55,872 nt of DNA from Candidatus Woesebacteria bacterium RIFCSPHIGHO2_01_FULL_39_32 (GCA_001792345.1 MGGJ01000001.1:358688-414559), one strand, 5' to 3'; positions 1,330 through 48,629 are shown, numbered from the stretch's first letter. A program made the numbers and translations. Notes: a model not told the origin generated them from the letters alone.

Positions 1330-1473
1330 ATGGAGGAAGAAGCGGAAAATCAAAAAAATTCACAAACTTATTATAAAAAAAGGCCTTTATGGCAGTGGAT
1401 TTTAATTTATTTAGGCGTCGGAGGTGTTATTTACGGACTGATTTATTATTTCAAGCAAAACAAAACTTATTAA
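1330..1473 (+). CDS. Small single-pass membrane protein (47 aa, below the ORF-track cutoff)
   Basis: Hand translation gives MEEEAENQKNSQTYYKKRPLWQWILIYLGVGGVIYGLIYYFKQNKTY. It has an acidic/basic N-terminus followed by one TM helix. Its stop overlaps the stop of the convergent gene at 1470. Confidence 0.35.
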   Translation: MEEEAENQKNSQTYYKKRPLWQWILIYLGVGGVIYGLIYYFKQNKTY

Positions 1474-2276
1474 TCCTTTGCCCAGATTACGAATGTAAAA
1501 AGTTTATTTGATGCTCCAAGATCCCGCTCGAAAAGAGCAACATAACCGTTATTCCTAATTTCTTTACCCCATTCACTTCTATTTTCAAAATCAGAGTTTT
1601 TTGCCGATTCTGCTACCAATAAACCGAAGGGTAAATTTTGAGAACTGCTTTTAACAGAAGTGAGGGTATCAAGATGGGAATAAATTGTTTCCAGCTGTTC
1701 ATAATCGTGACTGTTAGGATGCTCGTTACTAGGCGGACCATCAGGATCCGAGGTGTAATCCATACAGGTACCGAGATTGGTGTTACCATAGTTCTCGTCC
1801 TGATGATCAAGTCCCAATGTGTGACCAGCTTCCTGACACATAACCAAATTCTTCCACGCTGATGTATTGTATTTAGCTAAGTTAAAATACGTATCATTAA
1901 CCTTTGTGACACCCTGAGTAATATGATTTCCGCTCGCCCAAATTTGTGCCAATCCAAGCCAACCGTTATTTCCATATTTGCTATTACATACTTCTACCCG
2001 TCCGCTACTGGCTCTACAGTTTCTAGGGTTTGTTCCGCCGGAAACGATAGTCGTATCGAGAACCGAAGAAACACTCCAGTCAGAGGATGTTGTTGCAAGA
2101 TACGGATCCCAGCTTGAGGATAAGTTATCACCCAACTTCAGCGTAAATGGGTTACTTGTACGTGCCCAATGATAATTTCCCCATGAATGACTTGCACGAA
2201 CTTCTGAAGAAAACGAAAATAAAAATAAAGCGATTCCAAAAAGTGATAAAAGAAGGCGCATCTTTGTAATATGCAT
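1470..2276 (-). CDS. Secreted metzincin-like protein with variant zinc motif QEAGHTLGLDH
   Basis: N-terminal signal peptide MRLLLSLFGIALFLFSFSSEVRA. The motif QEAGHTLGLDH fits HExxHxxGxxH except that Gln replaces the first His. Confidence 0.55.
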   Translation of the reverse strand: MHITKMRLLLSLFGIALFLFSFSSEVRASHSWGNYHWARTSNPFTLKLGDNLSSSWDPYLATTSSDWSVSSVLDTTIVSGGTNPRNCRASSGRVEVCNSKYGNNGWLGLAQIWASGNHITQGVTKVNDTYFNLAKYNTSAWKNLVMCQEAGHTLGLDHQDENYGNTNLGTCMDYTSDPDGPPSNEHPNSHDYEQLETIYSHLDTLTSVKSSSQNLPFGLLVAESAKNSDFENRSEWGKEIRNNGYVALFERDLGASNKLFTFVIWAKD

Positions 2277-2345
2277 TACAAACTTATATTAACAAAAATT
2301 TAATTATTTTGTCAAATACCGACATATATTAGAACTACAAATTAT

Positions 2346-3521
2346 TTAAAGTTCGCAGGAAGAAGTAGTTTCCCCGCCGATACAAGTATCTGTACCTGAG
2401 TTTCCCCGGAGATTATCAAGATCTAATCCGCCGTCGAGAAGATCGTCTCCAGAATTTCCTCTAATTTTGTCATCACCTGCCTCCCCATAAAGCTTATCGT
2501 TTCCGGATCCTCCCCTTATTTCGTCATTCTCGCTTCCGCCGTAAATTTCATCATCACCATCTCCGCCGTCGATATCGTCCTCGCCCTCATTTCCATATGC
2601 TAAATCGTTTCCGGATCCTACATCTATATCGTCGTTTCCAGTTCCTCCCCAAACTTTGTCATTTCCGGAACCACTCCTTATGCGATCGTTACCATTTCCA
2701 CCCAAATCAACGTCGTCTCCGGATCCAGAATAGATCCTGTCATTGCCTTCACCACCAACCACACAATCATGCCCGCCATTGGAATCTATTCTGTCATTGC
2801 CTCCCTTAGCTAATATAAACTCGTTTGCAATCGTGCCGTTGATGTTATCATTACCCTCAGTTCCCTCGATCACACTGGTAATTACTCCACTTAAGTGTTG
2901 ACACTCTGGAGGGAGTTCTATTCCAGGTGCGTCTGTTTGCCAGATTATATTGAAGATAACTCTCGCTTCTTGATATTCATTTCCCGCGCTCGACGGAAAC
3001 TTCACTTTAACTCTATAGCTTTTGTCTGCTCCAGCAGGGAAGTTTCCAAGATTAAATAGGGGAGCGTCAAAAAGAGCCTGAAGTTTACCGCTGAAGATTA
3101 AAGTTGAAGTAAGTTCGGTAACTTCTACGTCTAAAATACCTGCAAAAGCCTTGTATTCATCGGTTTTGACAAAATCCATCGTAACTGACTCATCCTCGCC
3201 TGAGTCATTTTTAACATTAAAGTCCTTTTGCTTTTCATCTCCCGGAAGCATATTTGTCACAACAAACATCGGTGGATTAGGTGGTGGTCCTTCTGGAGTA
3301 TAAGTTACTATAAGAGGATCAACAGCATATGTTTCTACACCTCTGGAGTTGTGTTGGCTATAAACAAAATAAAACCCATAAAAAACAAAGGGTAAAAGTA
3401 AAAATAACAAAAACCTCTTTTTGGTGAATTCTACAGCTCTATGTTGAAATGTAGAAAATAATACCTGTTCGGAGGATTTCTTGAAACTATTTATATAATA
3501 TTTTTTAATTAAGTTTTTCAT
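2346..3521 (-). CDS. Membrane-anchored TasA/camelysin-like domain protein fused to about 14 RTX (GGxGxD) calcium-binding repeats
   Basis: N-terminal TM helix FLLFLLLPFVFYGFYFVY. The middle domain has MLPGDEKQKDFNVKN ... SAGNEYQEARVIFNIIWQ (compare B. subtilis TasA LKPGDKLTKDFQFEN ... NKYQGNSIKLQFSFEATQ). The C-terminus carries GGNDRI / GEGNDRI / GSGDD / GNGNDRI ... nonapeptide repeats. Confidence 0.75.
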   Translation of the reverse strand: MKNLIKKYYINSFKKSSEQVLFSTFQHRAVEFTKKRFLLFLLLPFVFYGFYFVYSQHNSRGVETYAVDPLIVTYTPEGPPPNPPMFVVTNMLPGDEKQKDFNVKNDSGEDESVTMDFVKTDEYKAFAGILDVEVTELTSTLIFSGKLQALFDAPLFNLGNFPAGADKSYRVKVKFPSSAGNEYQEARVIFNIIWQTDAPGIELPPECQHLSGVITSVIEGTEGNDNINGTIANEFILAKGGNDRIDSNGGHDCVVGGEGNDRIYSGSGDDVDLGGNGNDRIRSGSGNDKVWGGTGNDDIDVGSGNDLAYGNEGEDDIDGGDGDDEIYGGSENDEIRGGSGNDKLYGEAGDDKIRGNSGDDLLDGGLDLDNLRGNSGTDTCIGGETTSSCEL

Positions 3522-3523
3522 AT

Positions 3524-4936
3524 TTAAGGAGGGCTATTCGCTGATTTTGGTGTTCCTCTATTTTCTATATCCTCGCCTGAGTCAAAACCTACAGATGTAT
3601 TGGCTGTATGCCAACTTCCTGAAATAGTTCCGTCACCCGGCGTACTATTTCTTTCCATGGAGTAAAACTTCTTTGGTTGGCTTACTTTATGATTACCAGC
3701 AAGAGGAGTACTCTTGTTCCCCGCGGTATCAATAAGTGTTCCACCAGTATCCCAATTACTCACAAATAGTCTTATTTGTAAAGCGGTGTTGCTTAGAGTA
3801 ACACTTGTTGATATCTCATCGGGAGTGACATTAAGAGCACTTCCGGGATCGCCGCTGGGAAACTGAGCGATAAGGAAAAATCCTCCCGGGGGTATAGATT
3901 TTCCGGCTGAAATAGTAAACATCAATTCTTCATGATCCGTTCCGGAAGTTACCCATTTTGTCAATTGCCATCCGCTAATATCTATTGTGTTGGATGTTGT
4001 GTTTCGAAGCTCTATCCACTCGTCAGAAGCACCCTTCGTACTTCCCATCCACATTAATTCGTTTATCACAACATCTCCAGGTTGAGGTCCTTGAGGTGCT
4101 TGCGACCATTCTCCGGCTTGGAAAAGATTTCCGATTGAGTTTTCGATATCAGAAAAAAATGAGGCAGTAAGTCCGAGGAAAACTATACTTGCTCCGAAAA
4201 TAGGAAGCAGAACAGAAACTTTTGGTATCCCTTTATCTTTATCTTTAAAGTTCTCTCCCTGCGAGGCAGTATACTCCGGTTCTATTTTTAATTTCCTTCT
4301 TTTAAATCTAGATTTAATTTTCGAAAAACCACTTTTCAGAAGTGTTCTTATTTCATTTAGAAGTGATTTTAGTTCTTCGTAGATAATTATCGTTGCGGGA
4401 ACAATTACCAAAAGCAGAAAACCGTATGGGGTTTTTGCGTAATTTGCTAAATACCCTAGGTAGGGGATATTGAGAATATTTTTCCCGAGAATGTATTCGT
4501 CCTTTATTTCCCAAGTATCAAAGTCCTCATTCGCATCACCGCCTGTAATATATCTGGCAGGGGAATCAGCTCCATCCGGATATAATTTAAATACAATTCT
4601 GTGGGTTATTAGCTTTTTGGAATCACCGTTGGGAGCAAAAGTTATCACATCCCCCTGAACATAATTTTCTGAGGGATATGAAACAACAACACTGCCAGTT
4701 TTAATCGCCGGTTCCATTGAACCCGATTGAACAATATAAAGTTTAGGAATCCTTGAAGCAAATCCCCGATAATTAAAGCTAATCATTCTCGGAGGTTGAA
4801 TACGTTGCAATATCGGGATTTTAGATATACTGTGTGAGGTTAAAAGAAGAACAGTAATAGTAAGGCCAAAAGAAAAACTAGCAATCCCTAGAATTACTAT
4901 TTTCAAAATGCTCCAAAGTTTCTTAGACTTATTCAT
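3524..4936 (-). CDS. ER/archaeal-type (SipW/Sec11-like) signal peptidase I fused to an internal SipW-class signal peptide and a lamin-tail domain
   Basis: Peptidase motifs SGSMEP, ITHRIV and GGDAN. The order is TM, basic linker, third TM, then SFFSDIENSIGNLFQAGEW, then the LTD motif VVINELMW..DEWIELRN..ISGWQL. Start is ATG at 4936; an alternative GTG lies at 4972. Confidence 0.8.
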   Translation of the reverse strand: MNKSKKLWSILKIVILGIASFSFGLTITVLLLTSHSISKIPILQRIQPPRMISFNYRGFASRIPKLYIVQSGSMEPAIKTGSVVVSYPSENYVQGDVITFAPNGDSKKLITHRIVFKLYPDGADSPARYITGGDANEDFDTWEIKDEYILGKNILNIPYLGYLANYAKTPYGFLLLVIVPATIIIYEELKSLLNEIRTLLKSGFSKIKSRFKRRKLKIEPEYTASQGENFKDKDKGIPKVSVLLPIFGASIVFLGLTASFFSDIENSIGNLFQAGEWSQAPQGPQPGDVVINELMWMGSTKGASDEWIELRNTTSNTIDISGWQLTKWVTSGTDHEELMFTISAGKSIPPGGFFLIAQFPSGDPGSALNVTPDEISTSVTLSNTALQIRLFVSNWDTGGTLIDTAGNKSTPLAGNHKVSQPKKFYSMERNSTPGDGTISGSWHTANTSVGFDSGEDIENRGTPKSANSPP

Positions 4937-5054
4937 CTCAGACCACTGCAGTCCTGAAAACCAAAACTGCACTAGACTGATCTTTAACCCTTCGTTTTGC
5001 GGTCAGGGTTCTAACCTCCGATAGCGGTCGGTTAGAGGGCTAAAGAAAAGTCTT

Positions 5055-6500
5055 TTAAGGAAATGGCTGGGTACCGCAAAACGTTTGGACTCCGTCCAAA
5101 TCATATGCGTCTGCCGTACTCTCAAATAAACTCTTATCGCTGACATCGGTTATCCTCAGTTGCGATGCCCAAGCCAATCCTGAAGTACCTAGATCCAAAA
5201 ATGCGTCTCGAGTAGCGCTCGCCGTAACTAGGAAAAAGTTAACTCCGTCCTGACTTGCTTCAACTTTTATTTTCTCATCAGGATATGTTCCTCCTGTTAC
5301 CTCAAACACCCTAAAATCAAAACCTGCCAAATCAACAATTGGGTTAGCAAAGCTCAGCACTATACTTCCTCCGCCAACATTACCGGCTCCAAATCCTAAG
5401 CTGAAAAATGAACCGAAAACAACAGGTGTATCCGAAGGCGTTCCGGTACTTTGCGGCGCGCCGAGTGCGTCAGTAGGATCGCTTCTGTCGGCTAAAACTG
5501 CAGTTCCGTTTTTACGCAATCCTTGAGCAGACGATGCTACACCAGTTGCATATCCAGGAATACATACTACTCCAGTAGGGGTTGGTGTTAGTGTTACTTC
5601 AGGCGGATTACATAGAAAACCACCATTGTGTCTTGATTGAACTGCTCTAAAACTTATATCGGCAGTCATGCTATCGGTTTGTGTTTGGTTATCTTCTCCG
5701 GATCCATCACAGTCAAACCCTGCGCCTCTCACATCCGGTCCATTAGAATCGAGTTGTCCGGGAGTACCTACTTGACCAAGATTATCTTGCACAACTGGGT
5801 TCGGAGTGGCGAGAGTTCCAAAACACCAAGCCTTGCCGATGTATTTAGTCTGCCCACCGGGGAATGGAGACGGTACCGGATCCCAAATGTTATTTTGGGA
5901 ATCAGCTAAGGCAACTGTAGCTGTTTCTCCAACTTCGAGATTTCCCAAAGGTCCTGCCGGCAAAAGGGTTTCATTTTGACAGGCCACCTCTGGTGCTGGA
6001 CCGCCGCCGGCCTGTTCACATATTTCAAATACGTTATCGCCATCATCATCCCACCATATAAAGTTGACACGCTCCGCAAGTTCACCGGCTCCAGCACCTC
6101 CACTAGAATTATCGCCGTCCAGTGCTTCAGGATTTGTTAAAACGTTTTCGTCATCACTGGTTAAAGTTACGTCAACACAAATCCAAGAGTCGTTCTCAAC
6201 GTGGAGGCTAATAGTATCTTCTCCAAAGTCTCCAGGTTTCAGATCTAGAAAGTTGAAGAATAGGTATTGACCCTGCGCGGGTCCATTTCCATCGTCGAGA
6301 TCGGCCAATTGAAGCCAACTTGTTCCGGGATTATAAACACCGTTATAGTAGCTACTGTTATCTATTTTCAGGTCCAGCTCACCTGCTTGGAAAATGTTAT
6401 CTTTCGATGTTTCTGTATCGGAGAAGAATGCATTGGTTACTCCCAATGTAATCAATCCGACAGCACTTAAAACTAATATACTTTTTAATATTTTTTTAAT
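5055..6500 (-). CDS. Large TasA-superfamily secreted protein with SipW-class signal peptide (paralog A); apparent ATT start
   Basis: Contains NAFFSDTETSKDNIFQAGELDLKIDN, DLKPGDFGEDTISLHV and WCFG. The tracked ORF starts at TTG 6455, inside the signal peptide. Extending to ATT at 6498-6500 gives MKKILKSILVLSAVGLITLGVTNAFFSD, with a GGGGTGA Shine-Dalgarno 6 nt upstream. Confidence 0.7.
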   Translation of the reverse strand: MKKILKSILVLSAVGLITLGVTNAFFSDTETSKDNIFQAGELDLKIDNSSYYNGVYNPGTSWLQLADLDDGNGPAQGQYLFFNFLDLKPGDFGEDTISLHVENDSWICVDVTLTSDDENVLTNPEALDGDNSSGGAGAGELAERVNFIWWDDDGDNVFEICEQAGGGPAPEVACQNETLLPAGPLGNLEVGETATVALADSQNNIWDPVPSPFPGGQTKYIGKAWCFGTLATPNPVVQDNLGQVGTPGQLDSNGPDVRGAGFDCDGSGEDNQTQTDSMTADISFRAVQSRHNGGFLCNPPEVTLTPTPTGVVCIPGYATGVASSAQGLRKNGTAVLADRSDPTDALGAPQSTGTPSDTPVVFGSFFSLGFGAGNVGGGSIVLSFANPIVDLAGFDFRVFEVTGGTYPDEKIKVEASQDGVNFFLVTASATRDAFLDLGTSGLAWASQLRITDVSDKSLFESTADAYDLDGVQTFCGTQPFP

Positions 6501-6583
6501 ATCTATTCACCCCGATTCTAAGCCAAAAGGCATTCTCAAAATCCTTATCCCGTTAGATGTTCCGCTGGAACTATCTAACTGGG

Positions 6584-6634
6584 AAGTGCTTTTTAGTGCT
6601 TGCAAAGACTAATGCTCTGCAAGCACTAGCACTT
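6584..6634. other. Long nested hairpin between the two large TasA-like paralogs
   Basis: AAGTGCT(tttt)AGTGCTTGCA, a 13-nt loop, then TGCAAGCACT-AGCACTT. That is 17 bp with one 4-nt bulge and no U-tract on the coding (minus) strand. Confidence 0.5.
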
Positions 6635-6701
6635 TTATTCAAATTCTGAATCCCTTCAGTCTGTTTAACCTCAACATACATGCGCTAAGGTTCAAAACAG
6701 C

Positions 6702-7835
6702 CTAGTTAGGGGCGCAGAGTGCGAAAACCGTTATGCTCTCGCCATCGTTATCATTCTGTACGACCCACCCTGTTTCAGGGGGTATGTAGGTATAGTGGGG
6801 ATAGACGGGATACAAAGGTTCCCCCGCCTTTGCTGGGCCTGAGAATTGCACAGTGGCTGTGCCAGGTTCGTATCCTCCTCCAACCACGTGTGTGTCTACT
6901 GGGCAAGACCATCCGCCCCATCCATTTGGACCAAAAGCTAACTCAGGCGATTCGACGCGAACCACCCACTCGGGTAACCAGGTATCGCAAGAAAAGTCAG
7001 GATTATTTCGTGACTGTTCGGCATAGAACTCCAGATCTCCAACTACACTGTCAGTTTGAGCCGCATTATCCACACTTGCGCCACTACAACTAAATCCTGT
7101 TCCTGCGTTAAGTGGACTTCTGGTTTCATCTTGAGGTCCGCTTGCGGGATCTACTGGAGTTTGGTTCACATCACCAAAACACCAATACTTTCCTATATAG
7201 AAAGTTGTTCCACCAGGAATCGGATTAGTTGCACCCAGAATACTACTTTGAGAATCGGCTAGCGTAATTTGACCTTGTTCATCAATTCCACTAATTGGTC
7301 CGCTTAAGAATGGAGTAGGTTCGCCAATTTCAAATACATTATCTCCATCATCAACCCAGAAAGCGAAATTGACTTCTTCGTCAAGTTCTCCGTCACCGCC
7401 AGGATCTTGACATGTTGGATCATCGGCATTTTCGGGATCCGTACAGGAATTATCCTGATCTTCAGTGATTTGCGCTGCTGCACACATCCAAGCGTCGTTA
7501 CTGCCGACGTGAACAGAGATTGTATCTTCTCCATAATCTCCCGGTTTAAGGTCGACAAAATCGAAGAACTTCTCAACTGTCAAATCTCTCAATTCCCAAG
7601 AAGTGTGTGTGCTTGCAACAAAGGCACCAGTTGGTTGAGGATATCCTGGAATGTTCCAGTCGATTGCATAGCTTTCATTATCGATCTGAAGATCAATGTC
7701 TCCTGCAACGAAAGTGTTACCAAGAGATGTTTCAGAGTCGGAGAAGAAAGCATTGGATACTGCAATTGCGACAATAGCAACAACGCCGATTGTAAACAAG
7801 CTTCCGAATATCCTTCTTAAATTAGTTTTTTTCAA
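6702..7835 (-). CDS. Large TasA-superfamily secreted protein with SipW-class signal peptide (paralog B)
   Basis: Starts MKKTNLRRIFGSLFTIGVVAIVAIAVSNAFFSDSETSLGNTFVAGDIDLQIDN, with DLKPGDYGEDTISVHV and YIGKYWCFG. It aligns with paralog A over about 270 aa. TTG start with a GGGGGTGA SD 6 nt upstream. Confidence 0.8.
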   Translation of the reverse strand: MKKTNLRRIFGSLFTIGVVAIVAIAVSNAFFSDSETSLGNTFVAGDIDLQIDNESYAIDWNIPGYPQPTGAFVASTHTSWELRDLTVEKFFDFVDLKPGDYGEDTISVHVGSNDAWMCAAAQITEDQDNSCTDPENADDPTCQDPGGDGELDEEVNFAFWVDDGDNVFEIGEPTPFLSGPISGIDEQGQITLADSQSSILGATNPIPGGTTFYIGKYWCFGDVNQTPVDPASGPQDETRSPLNAGTGFSCSGASVDNAAQTDSVVGDLEFYAEQSRNNPDFSCDTWLPEWVVRVESPELAFGPNGWGGWSCPVDTHVVGGGYEPGTATVQFSGPAKAGEPLYPVYPHYTYIPPETGWVVQNDNDGESITVFALCAPN

Positions 7836-7930
7836 ATATTCTCACCCCCTCTCCGGGCAATTTACCCTTTAATTGCCTCGGTGAGATGTCAAAGACTACC
7901 TCACCGGGACTATAAAAAGTAAACTTATGT

Positions 7931-8758
7931 TTACCTGCTGTCTTTACCAGTATTTACATACTGAATACACAGCCCTTGGTTGCTGAAACCATAAGCTTCC
8001 CAGCCACCATCTTTACAATCGTCTTTGGTAACAGGATTGAGGACCACTTCGTATTTCTCAGAATTATCAATTGCTAAGAAACCGAAATCGCTCGTCACAA
8101 ACCAACCATAACGATTGCCTCCAACCGTAGTACCAATAACATCAGTTGGATCAGACAACGTCCATGTATGTAAAACTGTTTCAGTACCATCCAATACATC
8201 CATGACTACTTCCAGTACTCCACTTCCGTCATCTTGGAAAGTGTGACGAAATGTGTACCAACCACTGGTGTCTACAAAGAACGGATCTCTCCCCGGATTT
8301 GATGGCCAGCCCGGAGCATTATTGCTAGCACTCATGGCAAATTGCCCTGTAACTAGTGGGTCTGTACCAACGCTAAAGATAAAGTCTCTTCTGTGTGAAC
8401 CCGCAGGATCATTTATCGCAGAAGAAAAATCAAATCTTTTATCAGTTGCAAGTACAGTATTCTCAGACATATCAAGGTAGATATCGACTTGAGTTACATA
8501 ACCGTTAGTAGGGAAAGCGCTTTCATATCCACCCCAACGTGTAAATGCTCCTGCATCAACTTCCGCGTGGAAATCTCCATCGGCAGAAGTTACACCGTTA
8601 CTTCCACTGGCAACTCTAACTATGTTTGTCCCGTCGGTAAACCAACCATCTGTGTCGACCTCAAAGCCGTTAAAAAAATTAGCGACTGCCAACGCGGAAC
8701 CAGTAGCTAGAAGCAAAGCAAAAGTGGAAACTATTACTGATTTTAATATTTTTTTCAT
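7931..8758 (-). CDS. Secreted protein of unknown function (beta-rich, lectin-like; C-terminal CKDGGWEAYGFSNQGLC motif)
   Basis: Signal peptide MKKILKSVIVSTFALLLATGSALA. GGAGGTGA SD lies 7 nt before the ATG. I recognise no catalytic motif. Confidence 0.6.
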   Translation of the reverse strand: MKKILKSVIVSTFALLLATGSALAVANFFNGFEVDTDGWFTDGTNIVRVASGSNGVTSADGDFHAEVDAGAFTRWGGYESAFPTNGYVTQVDIYLDMSENTVLATDKRFDFSSAINDPAGSHRRDFIFSVGTDPLVTGQFAMSASNNAPGWPSNPGRDPFFVDTSGWYTFRHTFQDDGSGVLEVVMDVLDGTETVLHTWTLSDPTDVIGTTVGGNRYGWFVTSDFGFLAIDNSEKYEVVLNPVTKDDCKDGGWEAYGFSNQGLCIQYVNTGKDSR

Positions 8759-8855
8759 ATATTTTTCACCTCCTAACTAACAAAGGGCAGTTTTACCCCT
8801 TAGGCAGCAGGACAATTCATCATCCTGCCTTAAAAAGGTAAAGATGTGCACAAAA

Positions 8856-8879
8856 AAACCAGACTTCAGGGTCTGGTTT
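8856..8879 (-). terminator. Intrinsic-terminator-like hairpin in the region upstream of the 7931-8758 gene
   Basis: The minus strand reads AAACCAGAC-CCTGAA-GTCTGGTTT followed by TTTTG. This is a 9-bp perfect stem plus a U-tract, located about 100 nt upstream of the start codon at 8758. Confidence 0.45.
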
Positions 8880-9027
8880 AATCGGATTATTTTTTAATTC
8901 GCAACAATTATTAAAAGTCATAGCATTATTTCTTTGCACACTAGGTGCGGGATTATAAAAACTGTATCAAAACCTTACGGGTTTGAGAGCTTCGCTAGTT
9001 TATATAATTGAGTTCAAATACTTATTC

Positions 9028-9062
9028 GTTGATTAATAATCAACTCTTTGATTTGAAATCAA
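9028..9062. promoter_or_regulatory. Tandem palindromes GTTGATT-AAT-AATCAAC and TTGATTT-G-AAATCAA (candidate operators)
   Basis: Two adjacent perfect 7-bp-arm inverted repeats share the half-site TTGATT. They lie in the 567-nt divergent intergenic region of the TasA-like locus. Confidence 0.4.
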
Positions 9063-9325
9063 TTATGGGGCAGGAAACTTAGGAAAGGTATTAGTAAATA
9101 GTAATTTTCTAAATTCTAATGTAATCAAGCTATCACCCTAATAATAACTTTTCAAGTAGAACTTTAAATATATTAATGTATCAAATTAAACAAATTAAAA
9201 AAATTCCCATAATAATTTAAACAAGTTGAAGTTTCCATTGACAATTCGGCTAATTCTGGGACAATTCTTGAACAGTGGAGAATTTTAGGGTCCTGCTCTT
9301 CCAGATACCCTCAGTTTCTAATTAA

Positions 9326-9997
9326 ATGATCAAGAGAATATTTATCTCGGCTCTCTTTTTGCTCGTGATATCTTCTTATAATAATATTTTTGCTGCCGAT
9401 AAGAATGTTGTCTGTAATAATTCCGGCTGCAGCGGTTTTTCCGGTAGTCTTTTTTCTGAATCCGGAATGCTCCCTGGTGATACTTTATCGAAAACTTTCA
9501 GCGTTAAAAACGAAAGAAATGAGCCTATTTCCTTAACTTTGGAATCGGAAGAAAATGCCGGCACCGATGAAATCTTCAAGCAAAAAATTGTCGCAGTAGT
9601 TTATGAAAATGGGGGTTTAATAAAATTCAGCGGCACTTTTGAAAACTTTTTAGTTTCAGATATAGCTCTCGGCAATTTAAGCCCAAATGAGACCAAAAAT
9701 TATGAGATTTCAATAAGTTTTCCGACAGATGCAGGAAATGAATATCAGGGTAAAGTTATAAACTTTGATTTAAGTATCACAATTACAGGTGATGATGGAA
9801 GCACAGAAGTTTTATCGAGTTCAACATCAAATACCAACTCGTCTTCAAATAATTCTTCTCGGCCAGGAAGCATTCTTGGAACAATTTTGGGATTATCAGA
9901 TACAGGTGGGGTTAAGTTAGTTCTGATTTTTGGTGGAATTGGAATTTTATTAACTTCAATCGGATTAAAACTTATACACTCTAATCGGCGTGGTTAA
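9326..9997 (+). CDS. TasA/camelysin-like secreted protein with C-terminal LPXTG-like sorting signal (LSDTG + TM + RRG)
   Basis: It has a signal peptide, then MLPGDTLSKTFSVKNERNE ... DAGNEYQGKVINFDLSITI, paralogous to the middle domain of 2346-3521. A Ser/Asn-rich linker follows, then GLSDTGGVKLVLIFGGIGILLTSIGLKLIHSNRRG. Confidence 0.7.
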   Translation: MIKRIFISALFLLVISSYNNIFAADKNVVCNNSGCSGFSGSLFSESGMLPGDTLSKTFSVKNERNEPISLTLESEENAGTDEIFKQKIVAVVYENGGLIKFSGTFENFLVSDIALGNLSPNETKNYEISISFPTDAGNEYQGKVINFDLSITITGDDGSTEVLSSSTSNTNSSSNNSSRPGSILGTILGLSDTGGVKLVLIFGGIGILLTSIGLKLIHSNRRG

Positions 9998-10055
9998 ACG
10001 CACAAGAGGTTTATTGTTTTAACTATTGTTTTGGAATTATAATCAATCTAACCTC

Positions 10056-11720
10056 ATGGCAAAAATTATGCTTCTAAATGGTAAAAAATATCCTTTTGTT
10101 AACGAACCAAGCTTAAAAAAGGCCGCTTTAAAATATAAAAATATTTTTAGCATAAAAAAAGAAGGAAATAATATAATTTCGATAGAAAATATAAAACCGT
10201 TTTATTGGAAAAAGTGGAGTATCAAAAAAGATCAAACGGTTAAAGATGGCGCAGGCGAACCTATTTATGATTTCGATATTATCTTTAAGGATATTGTTTT
10301 GGAAAAACTTGATACTAAACTAAATCCCAGAAAAAATACAACCGACGCCTCTATTAATCCTAATAAAAAAGAAATTTATACCTATTTATCTAGTAAATCA
10401 ATTTACATCACAAATTCAGAAATACGTTCTAGTTTTAATTTAAATGATTGTATTCTTATTTTTAATTTAGTTCTTGATAAAACAATTTTCAAAAAAGATT
10501 TCTCCGTAAATAATACAAAGTTTTACAGTAGACTTTACATAAGAAATGCAACTTTCAAAGATAAAGTTATTTTTAATAAGTGTTTATTTGAATGCGGTTT
10601 AACATTTAAAGGCTCTTTATTAAAAAATAATTTTAATATTTTAAATTCAGAGATAGTTGAAACCGATAAAGTAGATAAAATCGATGTTGATTTTAGTAAC
10701 ACATTATTTGAAAAAGATTTAATTCTAAAAAATATTTTTAATACATGGGGAAGATATGCATTCAAAGAAGCCATTATCAAAGGTGATGCATATTTTTCAA
10801 ATATCAATAATCTTAGCTTTTTAGATCTTCGCCTTTCTAACTTTGAAAAACAGTTATTTTTGGAACTTGGAAGTGTCGGTCAATATAAATATTTAACGCT
10901 AGCTCTTTACCAGTCTGATATAAATCATCTTCTTTGTGATCATGTACAGATTAAAAATGTAAAGGTAAAATCCGAAAGTTATTCAAAAACCTATATCGCC
11001 AGGTTTTATGGTATTAAAAAACCGAAAACCGTAAGTTTTATCAGAAAAGAATTAAATTTAAAAACTATAAAAAGATTAGGGCTAAAAGCATTATTTTTTG
11101 GAACACATGGCAGGAATTACCATATGAAGGATGAAAAAGGTTTATTAAGAGAAAAATTAATTATTATTCAAACTATTAGAGATATGCTGCCGATTTATAT
11201 TCATGAGATTCGATTACTTAGAAAAATTTTTAGTGAGTTAAATATCCGTGAAGCAGATGATGTTTATTTTGCAAAATTAATGAACGCGCAGCTGGAATTT
11301 GATAGATATTGCTATGAATATAAATCCTTTTCCAAAAGGTTTTCTTACTGGCTCAGAAGAATTGTGTTTAAGAATGTATTTGGTTGGGGAGTACACTTGC
11401 AAAATGTAATTTATTATTCTGCATTGGTAATACTTTTTTTTGCTCTAATCTTTCACAATTTTTTACCGAACGCGGTATTTGCAACGGTGGATGAAGTAAA
11501 TGGAGTAATAAGTAATGAGCTTGTGAGGATGATTAATTATTCTTTCTGGGACAAGATTTTTATATCCTTTCAAGGATTTTTTGGAATTCTACTTCCGGAT
11601 TTTTCAATTAAAATCATAAGTGCTCCCCTTAATATTTTAATTACTTTAGAGTCCGTCATCGGGCTTATTTTTGTAACGGTGATGGTTGCTGTTCTTTCTA
11701 GGAAGTTCATGAGAATGTAG
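10056..11720 (+). CDS. Beta-helix (pentapeptide-like) repeat protein with C-terminal 2-TM pore-loop channel-like domain
   Basis: Degenerate 5-residue periodicity appears in aa about 130-290 (for example NATFKDKVIFNKCLFECGLTFKGSLLKNNFNILNSEI). The C-terminus reads YYSALVILFFALIF ... SFWDKIFISFQGFFGILLPD ... LITLESVIGLIFVTVMVAVL. This resembles a K-channel pore module but lacks the TVGYG filter. The gene is very AT-rich. The tracked ORF starts at TTG 10026. Confidence 0.5.
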   Translation: MAKIMLLNGKKYPFVNEPSLKKAALKYKNIFSIKKEGNNIISIENIKPFYWKKWSIKKDQTVKDGAGEPIYDFDIIFKDIVLEKLDTKLNPRKNTTDASINPNKKEIYTYLSSKSIYITNSEIRSSFNLNDCILIFNLVLDKTIFKKDFSVNNTKFYSRLYIRNATFKDKVIFNKCLFECGLTFKGSLLKNNFNILNSEIVETDKVDKIDVDFSNTLFEKDLILKNIFNTWGRYAFKEAIIKGDAYFSNINNLSFLDLRLSNFEKQLFLELGSVGQYKYLTLALYQSDINHLLCDHVQIKNVKVKSESYSKTYIARFYGIKKPKTVSFIRKELNLKTIKRLGLKALFFGTHGRNYHMKDEKGLLREKLIIIQTIRDMLPIYIHEIRLLRKIFSELNIREADDVYFAKLMNAQLEFDRYCYEYKSFSKRFSYWLRRIVFKNVFGWGVHLQNVIYYSALVILFFALIFHNFLPNAVFATVDEVNGVISNELVRMINYSFWDKIFISFQGFFGILLPDFSIKIISAPLNILITLESVIGLIFVTVMVAVLSRKFMRM

Positions 11721-11767
11721 CTGCTTGACTAAACCCCAACCTATAACGATAATATCGGCAATAACTT

Positions 11768-12448
11768 ATGCAATATAGAACTGTCGATTACCTTAGAGAT
11801 AGTTATTGGTTTATAGAAATGCCCATTAATTTGTGGGAATTTCTAAAGCCCAGACTGAAAAAGTTTTTAGATAAGGCAATTGATTTTGAGTACGACAAAT
11901 ATATATTTCGTATTGCAGAAAATCTCCCTTACGCTTTGGTTATTTTATTTTTGGGACTTTTTGCTGTCCTAACTTTGGCTAAATACAGCGAAAAACAAAA
12001 CGGTATCCGAGTAACAACTATCACTACTAATTCCATGTATCCTGCAATTGCGCCCGGAAGCATAATTATTTCTACACCTACTTCGATTTACTCAAAGGGA
12101 GATATTATAACTTACAAAGAAATTAATCCAAAAACAGGCGTTGAAACAGGGCGGGCTATTACTCATAGGATAATTTCGGAAGGCGAGTCAGACAAGGATG
12201 TTATTTATGTGACACAAGGAGATGCAAATAAGCAGCCGGATCCTGGCAATATCAAAAAGGAACAAATTTTCGGAAAAGTATTTATGATTGTCCCTTTTCT
12301 CGGGTACTTTGACATCGTCGTTAAGACTCTTCCCGGATTTACTATTTTTATAGTAATTCCCGCACTACTACTTATCAGAAATGAATTAAATTTTCTCAAA
12401 GAGGAGAAAAGATACAGCCTAAAGAAGAGTGACTTCGTTGGTTTGTAA
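11768..12448 (+). CDS. ER/archaeal-type (SipW/Sec11-like) signal peptidase I, stand-alone
   Basis: Motifs TNSMYPAI (Ser), ITHRII (His) and QGDAN. One N-terminal TM helix follows a roughly 55-aa cytoplasmic extension, and there is a C-terminal TM helix. Confidence 0.8.
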   Translation: MQYRTVDYLRDSYWFIEMPINLWEFLKPRLKKFLDKAIDFEYDKYIFRIAENLPYALVILFLGLFAVLTLAKYSEKQNGIRVTTITTNSMYPAIAPGSIIISTPTSIYSKGDIITYKEINPKTGVETGRAITHRIISEGESDKDVIYVTQGDANKQPDPGNIKKEQIFGKVFMIVPFLGYFDIVVKTLPGFTIFIVIPALLLIRNELNFLKEEKRYSLKKSDFVGL

Positions 12449-13318
12449 ATCAATCTCGCATTGGTTTCCAGATTCAACTTCCGATGTAGGCTTTGGCGTA
12501 GAATCAATATCTTCGTACTTACAAATAAGCTTACTCGAATCCGCGGATAATCCCACAATCCCAAATCTCCTTATAACTCCTTCTGGAATAGTTCCAATTG
12601 TAAGGTTTTCTTCGCTTTTTGAACTAAGGACAAAGGAGTATATATTCACAGGAGAGGAGGAGGCAGCGGTATTTATGTAATAAATTTTACTTCCGTTACT
12701 TGCCCAAATACATCCTTGTCTATTCGGGCTTACCTCAGTAACCTCACTGCCGTCTACTCTTGATAAGTAAAGAGCAGGTTCCGGAGCTGGAGGCCATGAT
12801 TCAAAACATAAATTAGTGTTGTCTGGGGAAACTGTAACTTTTGCAAAACCCGTAATACCAGTTGATTCGTAATCGTCCTTATTTATTAGTATCTGTAGTT
12901 CAGTTCCGGGTTTATCGCTTACTACACTTCCATCTTGAATTTTGACCTGATCGGCACTAAATTCCGGTGTTGGCGAAATTTGATCCTGGGGTGTCTGATT
13001 GTCTCCCTCTTCGTCTTTTTCTATATTTCTATTCTGAAAATAAAGATATGCTACAACACCATAGATAATAACTATAATAACCAATGCAAAAATTACAAAA
13101 GTTCTAAATCCACCCGGTCGGCCTGTTAGGTTAGAAGTAGGTTTCATCAATGGACTAGAAGGTATAGGAAAAGGAGTCGGTGTTGGTGTTTTAGTTTCGC
13201 TAGGTGGATTTGGCGCTTGAGAACTAACAGATTCTTGATTTAATGGCGAGGTAGGAAGTGGAGTTGGAGGGACAACGGATGCTGTTTGACCTTCTTCATT
13301 TTGTTTTAGAGGATCCAT
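12419..13318 (-). CDS. Pro-rich, membrane-anchored TolB/WD40-like beta-propeller repeat protein
   Basis: Has a Pro/Thr/Ser-rich N-terminus, a TM helix FVIFALVIIVIIYGVVAYLYF, then PD40-like repeats (LYLSRVDGSEVTEVSP, SNGSKIYYIN). Start is ATG at 13318; the tracked TTG is at 13357. The 3' end overlaps the convergent gene by 30 nt. Confidence 0.5.
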   Translation of the reverse strand: MDPLKQNEEGQTASVVPPTPLPTSPLNQESVSSQAPNPPSETKTPTPTPFPIPSSPLMKPTSNLTGRPGGFRTFVIFALVIIVIIYGVVAYLYFQNRNIEKDEEGDNQTPQDQISPTPEFSADQVKIQDGSVVSDKPGTELQILINKDDYESTGITGFAKVTVSPDNTNLCFESWPPAPEPALYLSRVDGSEVTEVSPNRQGCIWASNGSKIYYINTAASSSPVNIYSFVLSSKSEENLTIGTIPEGVIRRFGIVGLSADSSKLICKYEDIDSTPKPTSEVESGNQCEIDLQTNEVTLL

Positions 13319-13387
13319 ACTAATTCTACTATACACTGCTTTCCATGAGCCTCGCAAGAGAGCAAATATGTGTTGATTTAGTATATA

Positions 13388-18240: not shown

Positions 18241-18648
18241 ATGAGAAGAAAAAAATGGATTCACGTAGACTGGAAGCAAGCTTCTGATATCGAAAAGAGA
18301 GTTCTTCATTTAATAAAATCACTTGAGATGACTTGGATTGATATTCCAGCGATCTACTGTTTTCGCTCTAATAATTCAACATCCCGTGCCTATGCGCGAA
18401 TTTGGGGCTTAAGCAAAATTTGGCAACTTGCACTTAAGCATAAACCAGGATATGTAATTGAGGTTCTGGCTCAACGTTTTGATAAATTATCTGAAAGAGA
18501 ACAAGATAGAGTACTTCTACATGAACTTGCTCATATTCCTAAAAACTTTTCAGGGAGTTTACTACCTCACACGAAAAGTCGCGGTAAAAGAAATTTCCAT
18601 GACAGGGTTGACGAACTTTTTGCACAGTATTTACGATCAAAAGTATGA
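18241..18648 (+). CDS. Predicted small Zn-metallopeptidase (HExxH; COG4900-like)
   Basis: Has an HELAH motif within VLLHELAHIPKNFSG, at about 135 aa. The architecture is known mainly from archaea. Confidence 0.5.
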   Translation: MRRKKWIHVDWKQASDIEKRVLHLIKSLEMTWIDIPAIYCFRSNNSTSRAYARIWGLSKIWQLALKHKPGYVIEVLAQRFDKLSEREQDRVLLHELAHIPKNFSGSLLPHTKSRGKRNFHDRVDELFAQYLRSKV

Positions 18649-21764: not shown

Positions 21765-22436
21765 ATGCCGAGGAGAAAAACTCCAATTGTTACAGGTCAG
21801 GTTTATCACATATTCAACCGTGGAGTTAATAAGCAACCAATCTTCTTTGCACCAAAAAATTACCAAAGGGCCACAGATACAATCCGCTACTATTTGATTC
21901 ACAAACCACCTTTAGCTTATTCAAAATTTATTAAACTTCCAGAGAATATTAAAAACGAAGTTATACTTAACTTGAGTAAAATGGAAAAGGGCGTAGAAAT
22001 AATTTCTTATGTATTAATGCCTAATCATTACCATCTTTTACTTAGACAACTAATCGATGGAGCAGCAATGGTATTCGTAAGGAATTTTCAAATAAGTATT
22101 ACCAAATACGTTAATAAAAGATTTGATCGTACGGGCCCTTTACTTCAAGGTCAATTTAAATCTGTTTTGATAGAAGATGACGAGCAGCTATTACATGTTA
22201 ATAGATATATTCATCTTAACCCTCATACTTCTTTTATCGTCAAGGATCTTGATGAATTAAGAAGTTATATGTGGTCATCGCTTCCCGAATATCTTGGATT
22301 AATAAAAGAAGGTTTTTGTTCAAATAAGTTAATTCTTTCCCATTTCCAAAATATAACCAAATATTGGGATTTTGTTTCAAACCAGGCTGATTATCAAAGG
22401 GAACTAGACAGAATAAAACATTTAGTCCTGGAATAG
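21765..22436 (+). CDS. RAYT / IS200-like Y1 (HUH) transposase family protein, copy 1
   Basis: YHIFNRGVNKQPIF, the HUH motif MPNHYHLLL and the Tyr motif NRYIHLNP. It is flanked by direct copies of a roughly 30-nt hairpin motif. Confidence 0.8.
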   Translation: MPRRKTPIVTGQVYHIFNRGVNKQPIFFAPKNYQRATDTIRYYLIHKPPLAYSKFIKLPENIKNEVILNLSKMEKGVEIISYVLMPNHYHLLLRQLIDGAAMVFVRNFQISITKYVNKRFDRTGPLLQGQFKSVLIEDDEQLLHVNRYIHLNPHTSFIVKDLDELRSYMWSSLPEYLGLIKEGFCSNKLILSHFQNITKYWDFVSNQADYQRELDRIKHLVLE

Positions 22437-48616: not shown

Positions 48617-48629
48617 ATAAACTGTATTG

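What the first reader, a model, noticed from the sequence alone, without database searches (positions are those of the whole stretch)
1470..12448. SipW/TasA-type surface-fibre locus: four TasA-superfamily proteins plus two ER/archaeal-type signal peptidases
About 11 kb encodes six related components.
- Two large paralogs (5055-6500, 6702-7835) have N-termini matching the SipW-cognate signal-peptide class: (A/S)NAFFSD(T/S)ETS..N.F.AG..DL.IDN, followed by DLKPGD.GEDTIS.HV.
- Two smaller proteins (2346-3521, 9326-9997) carry TasA-like LPGD...F.VKN and AGNEYQ....F...W/I motifs.
- Two Sec11/SipW-type Ser-His signal peptidases are present (3524-4936, 11768-12448).

In Bacillus, the tapA-sipW-tasA operon builds donor-strand-exchanged biofilm fibres, and TasA-like subunits also build archaeal bundling pili. 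This locus is more elaborate. It contains an RTX-fused member, a member with a sortase-like signal (a possible anchor), a peptidase-substrate fusion, a metzincin-like protease and a lectin-like secreted protein.

The hypothesis is a multi-subunit TasA-like filament or adhesin system in a probable CPR episymbiont, where attachment structures matter biologically. I do not recall such a system being characterised in this lineage.
Basis: partly seen in the sequence, partly recalled or inferred. Interest (0 to 1): 0.85.

Follow-up and report, generated by a model that had tools for sequence, protein, structure and literature searches.

The report
TasA-like surface fibre operon in CPR
An ultra-small groundwater bacterium carries a widely conserved operon for TasA-like surface proteins and their dedicated signal peptidase, which probably builds a cell-surface fibre or adhesin that nobody has studied in this group.

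Summary
On the minus strand, E (6702-7835) and D (5055-6500) are 41% identical paralogs. Both carry the SipW-cognate signal peptide (TIGR04088, above cut-off). E's predicted core has only TasA structures as significant fold matches. C (3524-4936) and I (11768-12448) are archaeal/ER-type SipW peptidases.

C is a real peptidase-substrate fusion: SipW, then an internal signal peptide with the same FFSD.E.S..N.FQAG motif, then a lamin-tail domain. More than 100 protein clusters share this layout.

B and G share a small domain whose best fold matches are AbpA and TasA, at borderline significance. B adds RTX repeats. G adds a sortase-type LSDTG sorting signal.

In 79 CPR loci, every one of the 67 with enough downstream sequence has the order (D/E)x1-4, then SipW(-LTD), then, in 17 loci, the small domain(-RTX).

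The zincin-like A, secreted F and pentapeptide protein H are not conserved parts.

My best reading is a SipW-processed, donor-strand-exchange fibre or adhesin, with the released lamin-tail protein acting like TapA as nucleator. Fibre formation is inferred, not shown.

TasA homologs in Patescibacteria were noted in a 2022 survey, so this is a new variant of a known kind.

The parts
6702..7835 (-). E: TasA-like subunit (377 aa). It has a SipW-class signal peptide, a conserved post-cleavage segment FFSDSETSLGNTFVAGDIDLQIDN, an acidic jelly-roll core of about 260 aa, and an 87-aa C-terminal extension of unknown fold.
   Evidence: TIGR04088 22.4 bits against cut-off 19. AlphaFold pLDDT above 90 for most of the core. 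Its only significant PDB fold matches are TasA 8AUR and 5OF1. It has at least 837 homologous clusters, mostly CPR. The mature core has pI 4.05 and 18.8% Asp+Glu.
6584..6634 (-). Stable RNA stem-loop in the E-D intergenic region, with no T-run. It may be a transcript-stabilising or attenuating hairpin after the first subunit gene.
   Evidence: MFE -34.1 kcal/mol, z = -5.3, with 0 of 200 shuffles as stable. The role is inferred. Conservation was not tested.
5055..6500 (-). D: TasA-like subunit (481 aa from the ATT start). It has a SipW-class signal peptide, a TasA-like core, and a 180-aa C-terminal domain that weakly resembles discoidin/CBM32.
   Evidence: TIGR04088 29.6 bits and PF12389 26.6 bits over residues 8-50. 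It is 41% identical to E. The ATT aligns with the family's Met and is the same in 3 assemblies. The C-terminal domain is found in 20 of 79 loci, with 3 of 21 copies hitting F5_F8_type_C at up to 2.6e-4.
3524..4936 (-). C: SipW-type signal peptidase fused to its own substrate. The catalytic domain lies between two TM segments and is followed by a basic cytoplasmic linker, a third TM that acts as a signal peptide, the cognate motif, a Pro-rich linker and a lamin-tail domain.
   Evidence: TIGR02228 77.3 bits against 51.85, NF046067 SipW 8.2e-25, and LTD 4.9e-14. The fusion recurs in 113 of the 120 best homolog clusters and in 28 of 68 SipW ORFs in related loci.
4103..4207 (-). Internal signal peptide and donor-strand-like motif of C: VSVLLPIFGASIVFLGLTA|SFFSDIENSIGNLFQAGEW.
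   Evidence: It aligns to the D/E signal and N-terminal region over 32 columns at 44% identity (hhalign prob 84.6%, E 6.7e-6). It is one of only three ORFs in the 55.9-kb window with the motif. TIGR04088 itself did not score it.
3761..4087 (-). Lamin-tail (LTD, Ig-like) passenger domain of C.
   Evidence: PF00932 4.9e-14, 53.1 bits against cut-off 34.3.
2346..3521 (-). B: N-terminal TM or signal anchor, a small TasA/AbpA-like domain (aa 66-200), RTX Ca-binding repeats (aa about 212-385), and a C-terminal Cys-x10-CEL end. It starts 2 nt after C.
   Evidence: PF00353 4.7e-35. It is 30% identical to G over the small domain. The same gene order and architecture occur in 8-17 related loci.
9326..9997 (+). 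G: signal peptide, a small TasA/AbpA-like domain, a Ser-rich stalk, and LSDTG followed by a TM and a basic tail (a sortase-type sorting signal). It is transcribed divergently from the main operon.
   Evidence: AlphaFold pLDDT 87.5. The top PDB fold matches are AbpA 7UEG (1.0e-3) and TasA 5OF1 (1.1e-3). The family has 2428 representatives, and 13 of 129 hit PF12389 at E up to 0.01; the five examined scored below threshold. C-terminal L(S/A)(D/N)TG-type signals recur in the family.
11768..12448 (+). I: second, stand-alone SipW-type signal peptidase (226 aa).
   Evidence: TIGR02228 90.4 bits against 51.85. It is 37% identical to the peptidase part of C. A divergently placed second SipW is also present in L001.
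7931..8758 (-). F: secreted acidic 275-aa protein directly upstream of E. It is a possible extra SipW substrate and a lineage-specific neighbour, not a conserved part.
   Evidence: It has no family or PDB hit. Its N-terminal 43 aa align weakly to the D/E signal region (hhalign prob 69.8%). It is found in only 1 of 79 loci.
1470..2276 (-). A: secreted zincin-like protein (QEAGHTLGLDH) with its own promoter-like site. It is a neighbour, not a conserved part.
   Evidence: There are only sub-threshold Reprolysin_4/5 hits (E 0.021 and 0.069). It is found in 1 of 79 loci. A promoter-like site lies at 2315-2286.

Best explanation
The minus-strand operon E-D-C-B is one copy of a gene cluster conserved across the CPR. 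It makes a SipW-dependent, TasA-like surface fibre or adhesin.

**Shown here**
- E and D are exported with a SipW-class signal peptide.
- Their cores have a TasA-type jelly-roll.
- They sit next to a dedicated archaeal/ER-type signal peptidase.

**Inferred mechanism**
1. The peptidase cleaves just before or within NA|FFSD. This exposes a conserved N-terminal segment homologous to the TasA donor strand (TasA residues 28-38).
2. That strand inserts into the next subunit, giving chaperone-free donor-strand exchange.
3. The C-terminal modules of the subunits decorate the polymer as binding modules. These are discoidin-like in D, unknown in E, and beta-helix in relatives.
4. The peptidase C carries in cis a second signal peptide with the same motif, followed by a lamin-tail domain. 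Cleavage would release a 'donor-strand-only' protein, one per peptidase molecule. It can fill an acceptor groove but cannot accept a strand, so it could nucleate or cap the fibre as TapA does for TasA.
5. B and G belong to a smaller TasA/AbpA-like family. B is membrane-anchored with RTX repeats. G has a sortase-type sorting signal. They are the likely cell-proximal anchor or accessory subunits.
6. Calcium probably stabilises the assembly. The subunits are very acidic, they carry an invariant DDGDN motif, and B has RTX repeats.
For: - **Signal class and peptidases:**
- **Fold:** E's only significant PDB fold matches are TasA fibre and monomer. G's top two matches are AbpA and TasA. Thirteen of 129 relatives of G hit PF12389, one of them over model positions 14-174 of 196.
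- **Conserved N-terminus:** the post-cleavage segment is invariant in 120 homologs, and residues 33-42 have pLDDT below 50 in the monomer model. PF12389 aligns D residues 8-50 to model positions 9-51, which are the signal peptide and first mature residues.
- **Precedent in TasA:** the first mature residues, 28-38, are the donor strand, and TapA shares that N-terminus and nucleates the fibre (PMC9674648).
- **Synteny:** 67 of 67 informative loci have 1-4 tandem D/E genes followed by SipW on the same strand. LTD follows in 18 loci and the small domain in 17.
- **Fusion:** it is conserved together with its internal motif. In the window only E, D and C carry the motif.
- **Anchoring:** sorting-signal-like C-termini recur in G's family.
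- **Acidity:** pI about 4.05 and 16-19% Asp+Glu. The AbpX clade of the TasA superfamily is similar and is calcium-responsive (bioRxiv 10.64898/2026.01.04.697558).
Against:
- Fold matches are modest (TM-score 0.42-0.47 on the target). For G they are borderline and are followed closely by generic beta-sandwiches.
- Profile searches of both families against PDB sequences found no TasA.
- hhalign links B/G to D/E over only 21 columns.
- Both D/E copies in this window carry C-terminal extra domains, so no plain 'major subunit' of about 290 aa is seen here, unlike in most related loci.
- No sortase gene lies in the 55.9-kb window.
- TIGR04088 does not score C's internal motif.
- The cleavage site and cleavage of the fusion are predicted only.
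Confidence: 0.6

Rival explanations
1. The proteins are SipW-processed, TasA-fold surface or secreted proteins that act as monomers, for example as glycan- or host-binding adhesins or scaffolds for their C-terminal modules. No fibre forms. The conserved N-terminus would serve only as a recognition element for the peptidase.
For: Both D and E here carry C-terminal cargo domains, and relatives carry beta-helix and other modules. The monomer model folds completely with a high-confidence core. No polymer evidence exists.
Against: The invariant residues extend about 25 positions past the cleavage site. That is further than a peptidase site needs, and it matches the TasA donor-strand region. Tandem paralogs plus a donor-only protein fused to the peptidase fit a polymer better.
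Confidence: 0.22
2. The SipW-type enzymes are the organism's general signal peptidases, and the region is simply a cluster of unrelated secreted proteins. The apparent system would be an artefact of a secretome island.
For: Nearly all genes from 1470 to 12448 encode exported or membrane proteins. A, F and H are not conserved with the rest. No LepB-type peptidase is seen in the window.
Against: The gene order D/E then SipW is kept in 67 of 67 informative loci across many CPR lineages. The cognate motif occurs in only three ORFs of the 55.9-kb window, all in this operon. The peptidase is physically fused to a motif-bearing substrate in over 100 clusters.
Confidence: 0.08
3. D and E are camelysin-type (MEROPS M73) metalloproteases, and the operon is a secreted protease system together with the zincin-like A.
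For: D passes the Pfam gathering score of Peptidase_M73. Conserved His, Glu and Asp residues exist (H109, E103, D104). A zincin-like gene lies next to the operon.
Against: The PF12389 match covers only the signal peptide and first mature residues. There is no HEXXH-type site. The structurally characterised members of PF12389 are fibre subunits (PMC9674648). A is not conserved with the operon and has Gln in place of the first zinc-binding His.
Confidence: 0.05

Closest known systems
Bacillus subtilis tapA-sipW-tasA (and B. cereus sipW-tasA-calY) biofilm fibre operon
   Same: It has a dedicated archaeal/ER-type signal peptidase next to its substrates and the same class of signal peptide (TIGR04088). 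The subunit is a TasA-type jelly-roll. The N-terminus exposed by cleavage is homologous to the TasA donor strand. A second SipW substrate shares that N-terminus but has a different beta-sandwich body (TapA there, the LTD passenger here).
   Different: Here there are 1-4 tandem subunit paralogs, often with C-terminal binding modules. The TapA-like partner is an LTD domain translationally fused to the peptidase. There is an extra small TasA/AbpA-like protein with RTX repeats or a sortase signal. The subunits are strongly acidic with an invariant DDGDN motif. The host is a CPR bacterium. Sequence identity to TasA in the fold alignment is 13-14%.
Archaeal TasA-superfamily filaments: AbpA bundling pili (7UEG), AbpX, CanA cannulae
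   Same: They have a jelly-roll subunit and chaperone-free donor-strand complementation. AbpX loci also contain signal peptidase I, accessory and minor or tip components. AbpX-like proteins are acidic (pI about 4) and calcium-responsive. G's best fold match is AbpA.
   Different: E matches TasA itself, not AbpA, AbpX or CanA, in the PDB fold search. The AbpA operon lacks a dedicated peptidase. No archaeal example of a peptidase-substrate fusion was found in the papers read.
Chaperone-usher pili of Gram-negative bacteria
   Same: Donor-strand exchange between Ig-like subunits, ordered minor and tip subunits, and a terminator or nucleator that lacks one half of the interaction. Weak fold matches to EcpA, FimH and PapD appear in the lists.
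   Different: They are not homologous. This locus has no chaperone, usher or outer membrane.

Membership tests
TasA/camelysin family (Pfam PF12389) within the TasA superfamily: D and E | Sequence match to the family profile at the curated threshold | tested here: inconclusive
   D scores 26.6 bits against the 22.5 gathering score, but only over residues 8-50. E scores 15.2 bits, below threshold. About 40% of the 120 best homologs carry a precomputed PF12389 hit.
TasA/camelysin family (Pfam PF12389) within the TasA superfamily: D and E | SipW-dependent-type signal peptide (TIGR04088) | tested here: met
   D 29.6 bits and E 22.4 bits against cut-off 19. The motif is invariant in 120 homologs.
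TasA/camelysin family (Pfam PF12389) within the TasA superfamily: D and E | TasA-type jelly-roll fold of the mature domain | tested here: met
   The model of E has a core pLDDT mostly above 90. Its only PDB matches with E below 1e-3 are TasA 8AUR_A (9.6e-5) and 5OF1_A (4.3e-4), both prob 1.00 and target TM-score 0.42-0.47. D was not modelled; its fold is inferred from 41% identity to E.
TasA/camelysin family (Pfam PF12389) within the TasA superfamily: D and E | Polymerisation by N-terminal donor-strand exchange | not testable with these tools
   Only monomer prediction was available and both jobs are used. Indirect support comes from the conserved N-terminal segment, its low pLDDT at residues 33-42 in the monomer model, and its homology to TasA residues 28-38.
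TasA/camelysin family (Pfam PF12389) within the TasA superfamily: D and E | Genomic linkage to a SipW-type peptidase | tested here: met
   67 of 67 informative related loci, and this window.
TasA superfamily: small domain of B and G | Jelly-roll fold related to TasA/AbpA | tested here: inconclusive
   The model of G has pLDDT 87.5. Its top matches are AbpA 7UEG_A (1.0e-3) and TasA 5OF1_B (1.1e-3, rmsd 4.5 over 169 columns), but lectins and pilins follow at 1.6-3e-3.
TasA superfamily: small domain of B and G | Sequence relationship to PF12389 or to D/E | tested here: inconclusive
   G and B themselves give no hit. Thirteen of 129 relatives hit PF12389 at E up to 0.01 (best 4.1e-5). The five examined scored 16-22 bits, below the 22.5 cut-off, one of them over model positions 14-174 of 196. 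hhalign against D/E gives 21 columns at prob 59%.
TasA superfamily: small domain of B and G | SipW-class signal peptide | tested here: not met
   There is no TIGR04088 hit. The family N-termini are ordinary signal peptides followed by A.D..V.C...GC or AVDPL.V.Y, not FFSD.
SipW / archaeal-ER-type signal peptidase I (TIGR02228): C and I | Profile match at the curated threshold | tested here: met
   C 77.3 bits and I 90.4 bits against 51.85. Both also match the Bacillus SipW model NF046067 (8.2e-25 and 8.5e-20), though below its equivalog cut-off of 190.
SipW / archaeal-ER-type signal peptidase I (TIGR02228): C and I | Catalytic Ser (S-M-x-P) and His (T-H-R) of the Ser-His type | tested here: met
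   C has SGSMEPA and ITHRIV. I has TNSMYPA and ITHRII. The two align with each other. That these are the catalytic residues follows from established knowledge of the family. Activity is not testable here.
Sortase substrates (LPXTG-type sorting signal): G | C-terminal pentapeptide motif, then a hydrophobic segment, then a basic tail | tested here: met
   G ends in LGLSDTGG-VKLVLIFGGIGILLTSIGLKL-IHSNRRG. Relatives show LSDTG, LANTG, LAATG, LPKTG and LPATG before a TM and a basic tail, and 68 of 129 have a C-terminal TM.
Sortase substrates (LPXTG-type sorting signal): G | A cognate sortase in the genome | tested here: inconclusive
   No sortase is found in the 55.9-kb window. The rest of the contig of at least 417 kb could not be examined.
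Metzincin / zincin metalloprotease: A | HEXXHXXGXXH zinc site and a family profile match | tested here: not met
   The motif is QEAGHTLGLDH, with Gln in place of the first His. Reprolysin_4 and Reprolysin_5 score 14.9 and 13.8 bits against cut-offs of 22 and 27. There is no meaningful PDB sequence match.

The most novel reading that the evidence does not exclude
A CPR-wide, chaperone-free donor-strand-exchange fibre in which the dedicated signal peptidase is translationally fused to the fibre's own nucleator or cap. That partner is a lamin-tail domain carrying only a donor strand, so processing and nucleation would be coupled one-to-one at the membrane. Such fibres, carrying glycan-binding modules, could account for part of the 'pili-like appendages' seen by cryo-TEM between ultra-small groundwater cells and their hosts. 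Those appendages are so far attributed to type IV pili.
Probability: 0.3. Interest if true: 0.8.

Novelty: new variant of a known kind. Interest (0 to 1): 0.55.

Why it matters
CPR/Patescibacteria are thought to live attached to host cells. Type IV pili are the only attachment appendage studied in them so far.

This operon is conserved across many CPR lineages. The scan found 255 relatives among species-representative genomes, and there are at least 837 subunit protein clusters. It offers a second, unrelated candidate for a surface fibre or adhesin.

It would also extend the TasA superfamily of biofilm fibres, known in Bacillus and in archaea, into this large and poorly understood radiation.

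The recurrent fusion of a signal peptidase to its own substrate is unusual, and public records label these proteins only as 'signal peptidase I'. If the released lamin-tail protein nucleates the fibre, it would be a compact way to couple secretion, processing and assembly in cells with very small genomes.

The prediction can be tested with recombinant proteins, without cultivating the organism.

Tried and rejected
- **PDB by sequence.** Single-sequence and profile searches for E, the D/E family, the B/G family, A and F gave no meaningful hit. Only fold comparison linked the proteins to TasA and AbpA.
- **B/G against D/E.** hhalign matched only 21 columns around the PGD motif, so I do not claim close kinship between the two families.
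- **C's internal motif.** TIGR04088 did not score C's passenger. The link rests on hhalign to the D/E alignment and on conservation across the fusion family.
- **Homologs of G.** The word-indexed search found only 6 proteins. The exhaustive representative search was needed.
- **Promoters and terminators.** The scan gave counts at chance level, so I drew no operon boundaries from it.
- **Sortase or LepB.** I looked across the rest of the window and found none.
- **Genetic code.** I considered a recoded-stop (code 25) explanation for D's missing start. I rejected it because all other ORFs read normally in table 11, and the ATT aligns exactly with the family's initiator Met.
- **Fusion artefact.** I considered that C is an assembly or frameshift artefact. 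I rejected it because the same architecture is found in over 100 independent clusters.
- **Literature.** I found no paper that analyses SipW or TasA-like genes in CPR beyond a one-line survey mention.

Full report
**1. What is in the sequence**

The region holds nine ORFs.

On the minus strand, in transcription order:
- F, 7931-8758
- E, 6702-7835
- D, 5055-6500
- C, 3524-4936 (an alternative GTG start lies at 4972)
- B, 2346-3521
- A, 1470-2276

On the plus strand, divergent from F:
- G, 9326-9997
- H, 10026-11720
- I, 11768-12448

The window is identical to part of GCA_001793105.1, contig MGHH01000007.1 (417 kb), and to two JGI metagenome contigs. Its closest relatives are Woesebacteria and Microgenomates MAGs, so a CPR origin is confirmed.

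The rest of the window is ordinary housekeeping: glycolysis, UvrABC, LexA and tRNAs.

**2. Checking the observation**

*D and E.* They are paralogs, 41% identical over about 300 aa (E 3e-62). Both pass the curated threshold of TIGR04088, the SipW-dependent signal peptide model. D also passes the gathering score of PF12389 (camelysin/TasA), but only over residues 8-50.

*D's start codon.* D's signal peptide is complete only if translation starts at the ATT at 6500. The canonical TTG at 6455 would remove the n- and h-regions. The ATT aligns with the initiator Met of the family consensus MKKILxS, and it is the same in three assemblies.

*C and I.* Both pass TIGR02228 (archaeal-type signal peptidase I) and match the Bacillus SipW model. 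Both have the S-M-x-P serine and T-H-R histidine motifs.

*B and G.* B carries RTX repeats (4.7e-35) and C carries a lamin-tail domain (4.9e-14). B and G share a domain of about 140 aa (30% identity, E 2e-13), including the LPGD and AGNEYQ motifs.

**3. Are D and E TasA-like beyond the signal peptide?**

E has at least 837 homologous clusters, mostly labelled CPR. Most are proteins of about 290 aa. Some have C-terminal beta-helix or other modules.

In an alignment of 120 of them (A1), these features are invariant:
- the segment after the predicted cleavage site, (A)FFSD.ETS..N.F.AG.IDL.IDN
- KPGD.GEDT
- FW.DDGDN
- two invariant Cys (C118, C250), with two more (C219, C283) in at least 90% of sequences

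The AlphaFold model of E has a core pLDDT mostly above 90. Residues 33-42 have pLDDT below 50, and so does most of the C-terminal 87 aa.

A Foldseek search of the PDB gave only two matches with E below 1e-3. Both are TasA: the fibre 8AUR (9.6e-5) and the monomer 5OF1 (4.3e-4). Sequence and profile searches of the PDB found nothing, so the relationship is remote but specific.

The mature cores are very acidic, with pI about 4.05 and 16-19% Asp+Glu.

**4. The small domain of B and G**

The word-indexed search found almost no relatives of G. The exhaustive search with a B/G profile found 2428 representatives at E up to 1e-3.

Among 129 of them, the matching Pfam families were:

| Pfam family | Members matching |
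|---|---|
| fn3 | 21 |
| PF12389 | 13 |
| RTX | 12 |
| LTD | 9 |

In the five members examined, the PF12389 matches score below threshold (16-22 bits against 22.5). They cover model positions 29-86, and in one case 14-174 of 196.

G's model (pLDDT 87.5) has AbpA (7UEG, 1.0e-3) and TasA (5OF1, 1.1e-3) as its top two PDB fold matches. Generic beta-sandwich lectins and pilins follow closely.

hhalign links this family to D/E over only 21 columns. Its N-termini are ordinary signal peptides without the FFSD motif.

I therefore call B and G probable, compact members of the TasA superfamily, not proven ones.

Many members, including G, end in L(S/A)(D/N)TG or LP.TG, followed by a hydrophobic segment and a basic tail. 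This is the layout of a sortase sorting signal. No sortase gene lies in the window.

**5. Synteny**

A scan of one genome per GTDB species found 255 relatives of E. The best 79 loci were fetched, and by record title they are mostly from many CPR lineages.

tblastn with the window's proteins gave these results:
- There are 1-4 tandem D/E paralogs per locus; three is the commonest number.
- A SipW-type gene lies downstream on the same strand in 67 loci, with a median gap of 270 nt.
- The other 12 loci all end within 1.3 kb of the last D/E gene. Every informative locus therefore has the peptidase.
- An LTD follows the peptidase in 18 loci.
- The B/G-type domain follows in 17 loci, 8 of them with RTX.
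- D's C-terminal domain recurs in 20 loci.
- A and F each recur in one locus. H recurs in none.

The conserved unit is therefore (D/E)n, then SipW(-LTD), then the small domain(-RTX). That is E-D-C-B in this window. A has its own promoter-like site. A, F and H are lineage-specific neighbours.

G and I form a second, divergently transcribed pair of a small-domain protein and a SipW. A similarly placed second SipW is seen in L001.

**6. The peptidase-substrate fusion**

C has this layout:
- a SipW domain between two TM segments
- a basic linker
- a third TM
- the sequence LGLTA|SFFSDIENSIGNLFQAGEW
- a Pro-rich linker
- the LTD

The topology is that of a peptidase followed by a preprotein.

The motif region aligns to the D/E signal and N-terminal region over 32 columns at 44% identity (E 6.7e-6). 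In the whole window only E, D and C carry the motif.

In related loci, 28 of 68 SipW ORFs are long fusions, and essentially all carry an internal TM plus the motif. A homolog search found 466 clusters. Of the best 120, 113 are such fusions. Sources name them only 'signal peptidase I', from Woesebacteria, Gottesmanbacteria, Chisholmbacteria and other CPR.

The fusion is therefore genuine and conserved. TIGR04088 did not score it.

**7. Mechanism**

*Established for TasA (PMC9674648).* SipW cleavage exposes residues 28-38. These insert as a donor strand into the next subunit. TapA shares this N-terminus and is thought to supply the first donor strand.

*Shown here.* This locus has the same class of signal peptide, a homologous conserved N-terminus, a TasA-type fold, a dedicated peptidase, tandem subunit paralogs, and a second substrate that has the N-terminus but a different body.

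*Inferred.*
- E and D polymerise by donor-strand exchange.
- Their C-terminal modules act as binding modules along or at the end of the fibre. D's module weakly resembles discoidin/CBM32.
- The LTD passenger is released from C and acts as a donor-only nucleator or cap.
- B and G anchor or accessorise the structure. B is membrane-anchored with an RTX module. G is anchored by its sorting signal.
- Calcium probably stabilises the assembly. The evidence is the acidity, the DDGDN motif and the RTX repeats, and the parallel is the calcium-responsive AbpX clade.
- A very stable hairpin lies between E and D (-34 kcal/mol, z = -5.3). It may raise E's expression relative to downstream genes. I did not test whether it is conserved.

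*Rivals.* The alternatives are monomeric adhesins, a generic secretome island, and M73 proteases. I weigh them in the Rival explanations section. None fits the synteny, the long invariant N-terminus and the fusion as well.

**8. Comparison with what is known, and novelty**

The TasA superfamily now comprises TasA, AbpA, AbpX, CanA, Sulfolobus threads and Tafi. The loci of some of these include signal peptidase I and minor components.

A 2022 AnnoTree survey listed Patescibacteria among the phyla with PF12389 hits, without further analysis (PMC9245690). The most recent superfamily map, built from RefSeq, has no CPR cluster.

No paper in the searchable library treats SipW or TasA-like genes in CPR.

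Pili-like appendages on ultra-small groundwater cells have been imaged (PMC7906910). Work on cultivated Saccharibacteria has implicated type IV pili in host attachment (titles listed).

I rate this a new variant of a known kind. The family and principle are known. What is new:
- the breadth across CPR
- the operon grammar
- the cargo-bearing paralogs
- the small RTX- or sortase-linked relative
- above all, the peptidase-nucleator fusion

**9. Verdict**

| Claim | Confidence |
|---|---|
| SipW-processed operon of TasA-superfamily surface proteins | about 0.85 |
| It forms a donor-strand-exchange fibre as described | about 0.6 |

Interest: 0.55.

Noticed in passing
window 6498-6500 (minus strand): Gene D appears to start at an ATT codon. 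It aligns with the initiator Met of the family consensus (MKKILxS against IKKILKS), lies 9 nt after a GGGGTGA Shine-Dalgarno-like run, and is the same in three assemblies. Public gene calls start 15-18 codons later and so cut off the signal peptide.
   Followed up: partly
window 6584-6634 (minus strand): A very stable stem-loop lies between E and D (-34.1 kcal/mol, z = -5.3), with no T-run after it. It may control relative expression of the subunit genes.
   Followed up: partly
window 2346-2400 (minus strand), and L002, L004, L027, L030, L032, L046: The RTX-bearing B-type proteins all end in a conserved two-Cys tail, ...(T)D.C-x8-11-CEL (or CEI) followed by the stop. I know of no named motif like it.
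   Followed up: no
window 10001-12000 against 2001-8000: There is a marked composition contrast. The H region has 28% GC, the E-D-C-B operon has 41-44%, and the window averages about 37%. This suggests different histories for the two halves of the locus.
   Followed up: no
window 10026-11720 (+): H is a 564-aa protein with a Pentapeptide_3 repeat and C-terminal TM segments. It sits between G and the second SipW. It has no counterpart in any of the 79 related loci.
   Followed up: partly
window 8856-8879 (minus strand): A terminator-like hairpin with a T-run lies in the F-G divergent intergenic region, upstream of F on F's own strand. It has no obvious gene to terminate.
   Followed up: no
window 21765-22436 and 48627-49301 (+): Two ORFs of 223-224 aa both give weak IS200-like Y1 transposase hits (PF01797, about 3e-6). 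They may be REP-associated tyrosine transposase-like paralogs.
   Followed up: no
window 35084-36952 (+): A 622-aa transglutaminase-core protein is inserted between uvrA (32101-35064) and uvrC (36846-38225). It overlaps the uvrC ORF by about 100 nt. LexA lies just upstream of uvrB.
   Followed up: no
window 18241-18648 and 38269-38670 (+): There are isolated phage-type genes among housekeeping genes: PhageMetallopep (PF18894) and a superfamily IV holin (PF04020).
   Followed up: no
window 12419-13357 (minus strand): A 312-aa protein with a Pro/Ser/Thr-rich N-terminus and one TM has no family hit. It overlaps the 3' end of the second SipW gene by 30 nt on the opposite strand.
   Followed up: no
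L041, L063, L066 (SipW ORFs): In some Parcubacteria-type loci the passenger fused to SipW is not an LTD. After the motif it continues as ...AG.LD.xIS, which looks like the start of another D/E-like domain.
   Followed up: no
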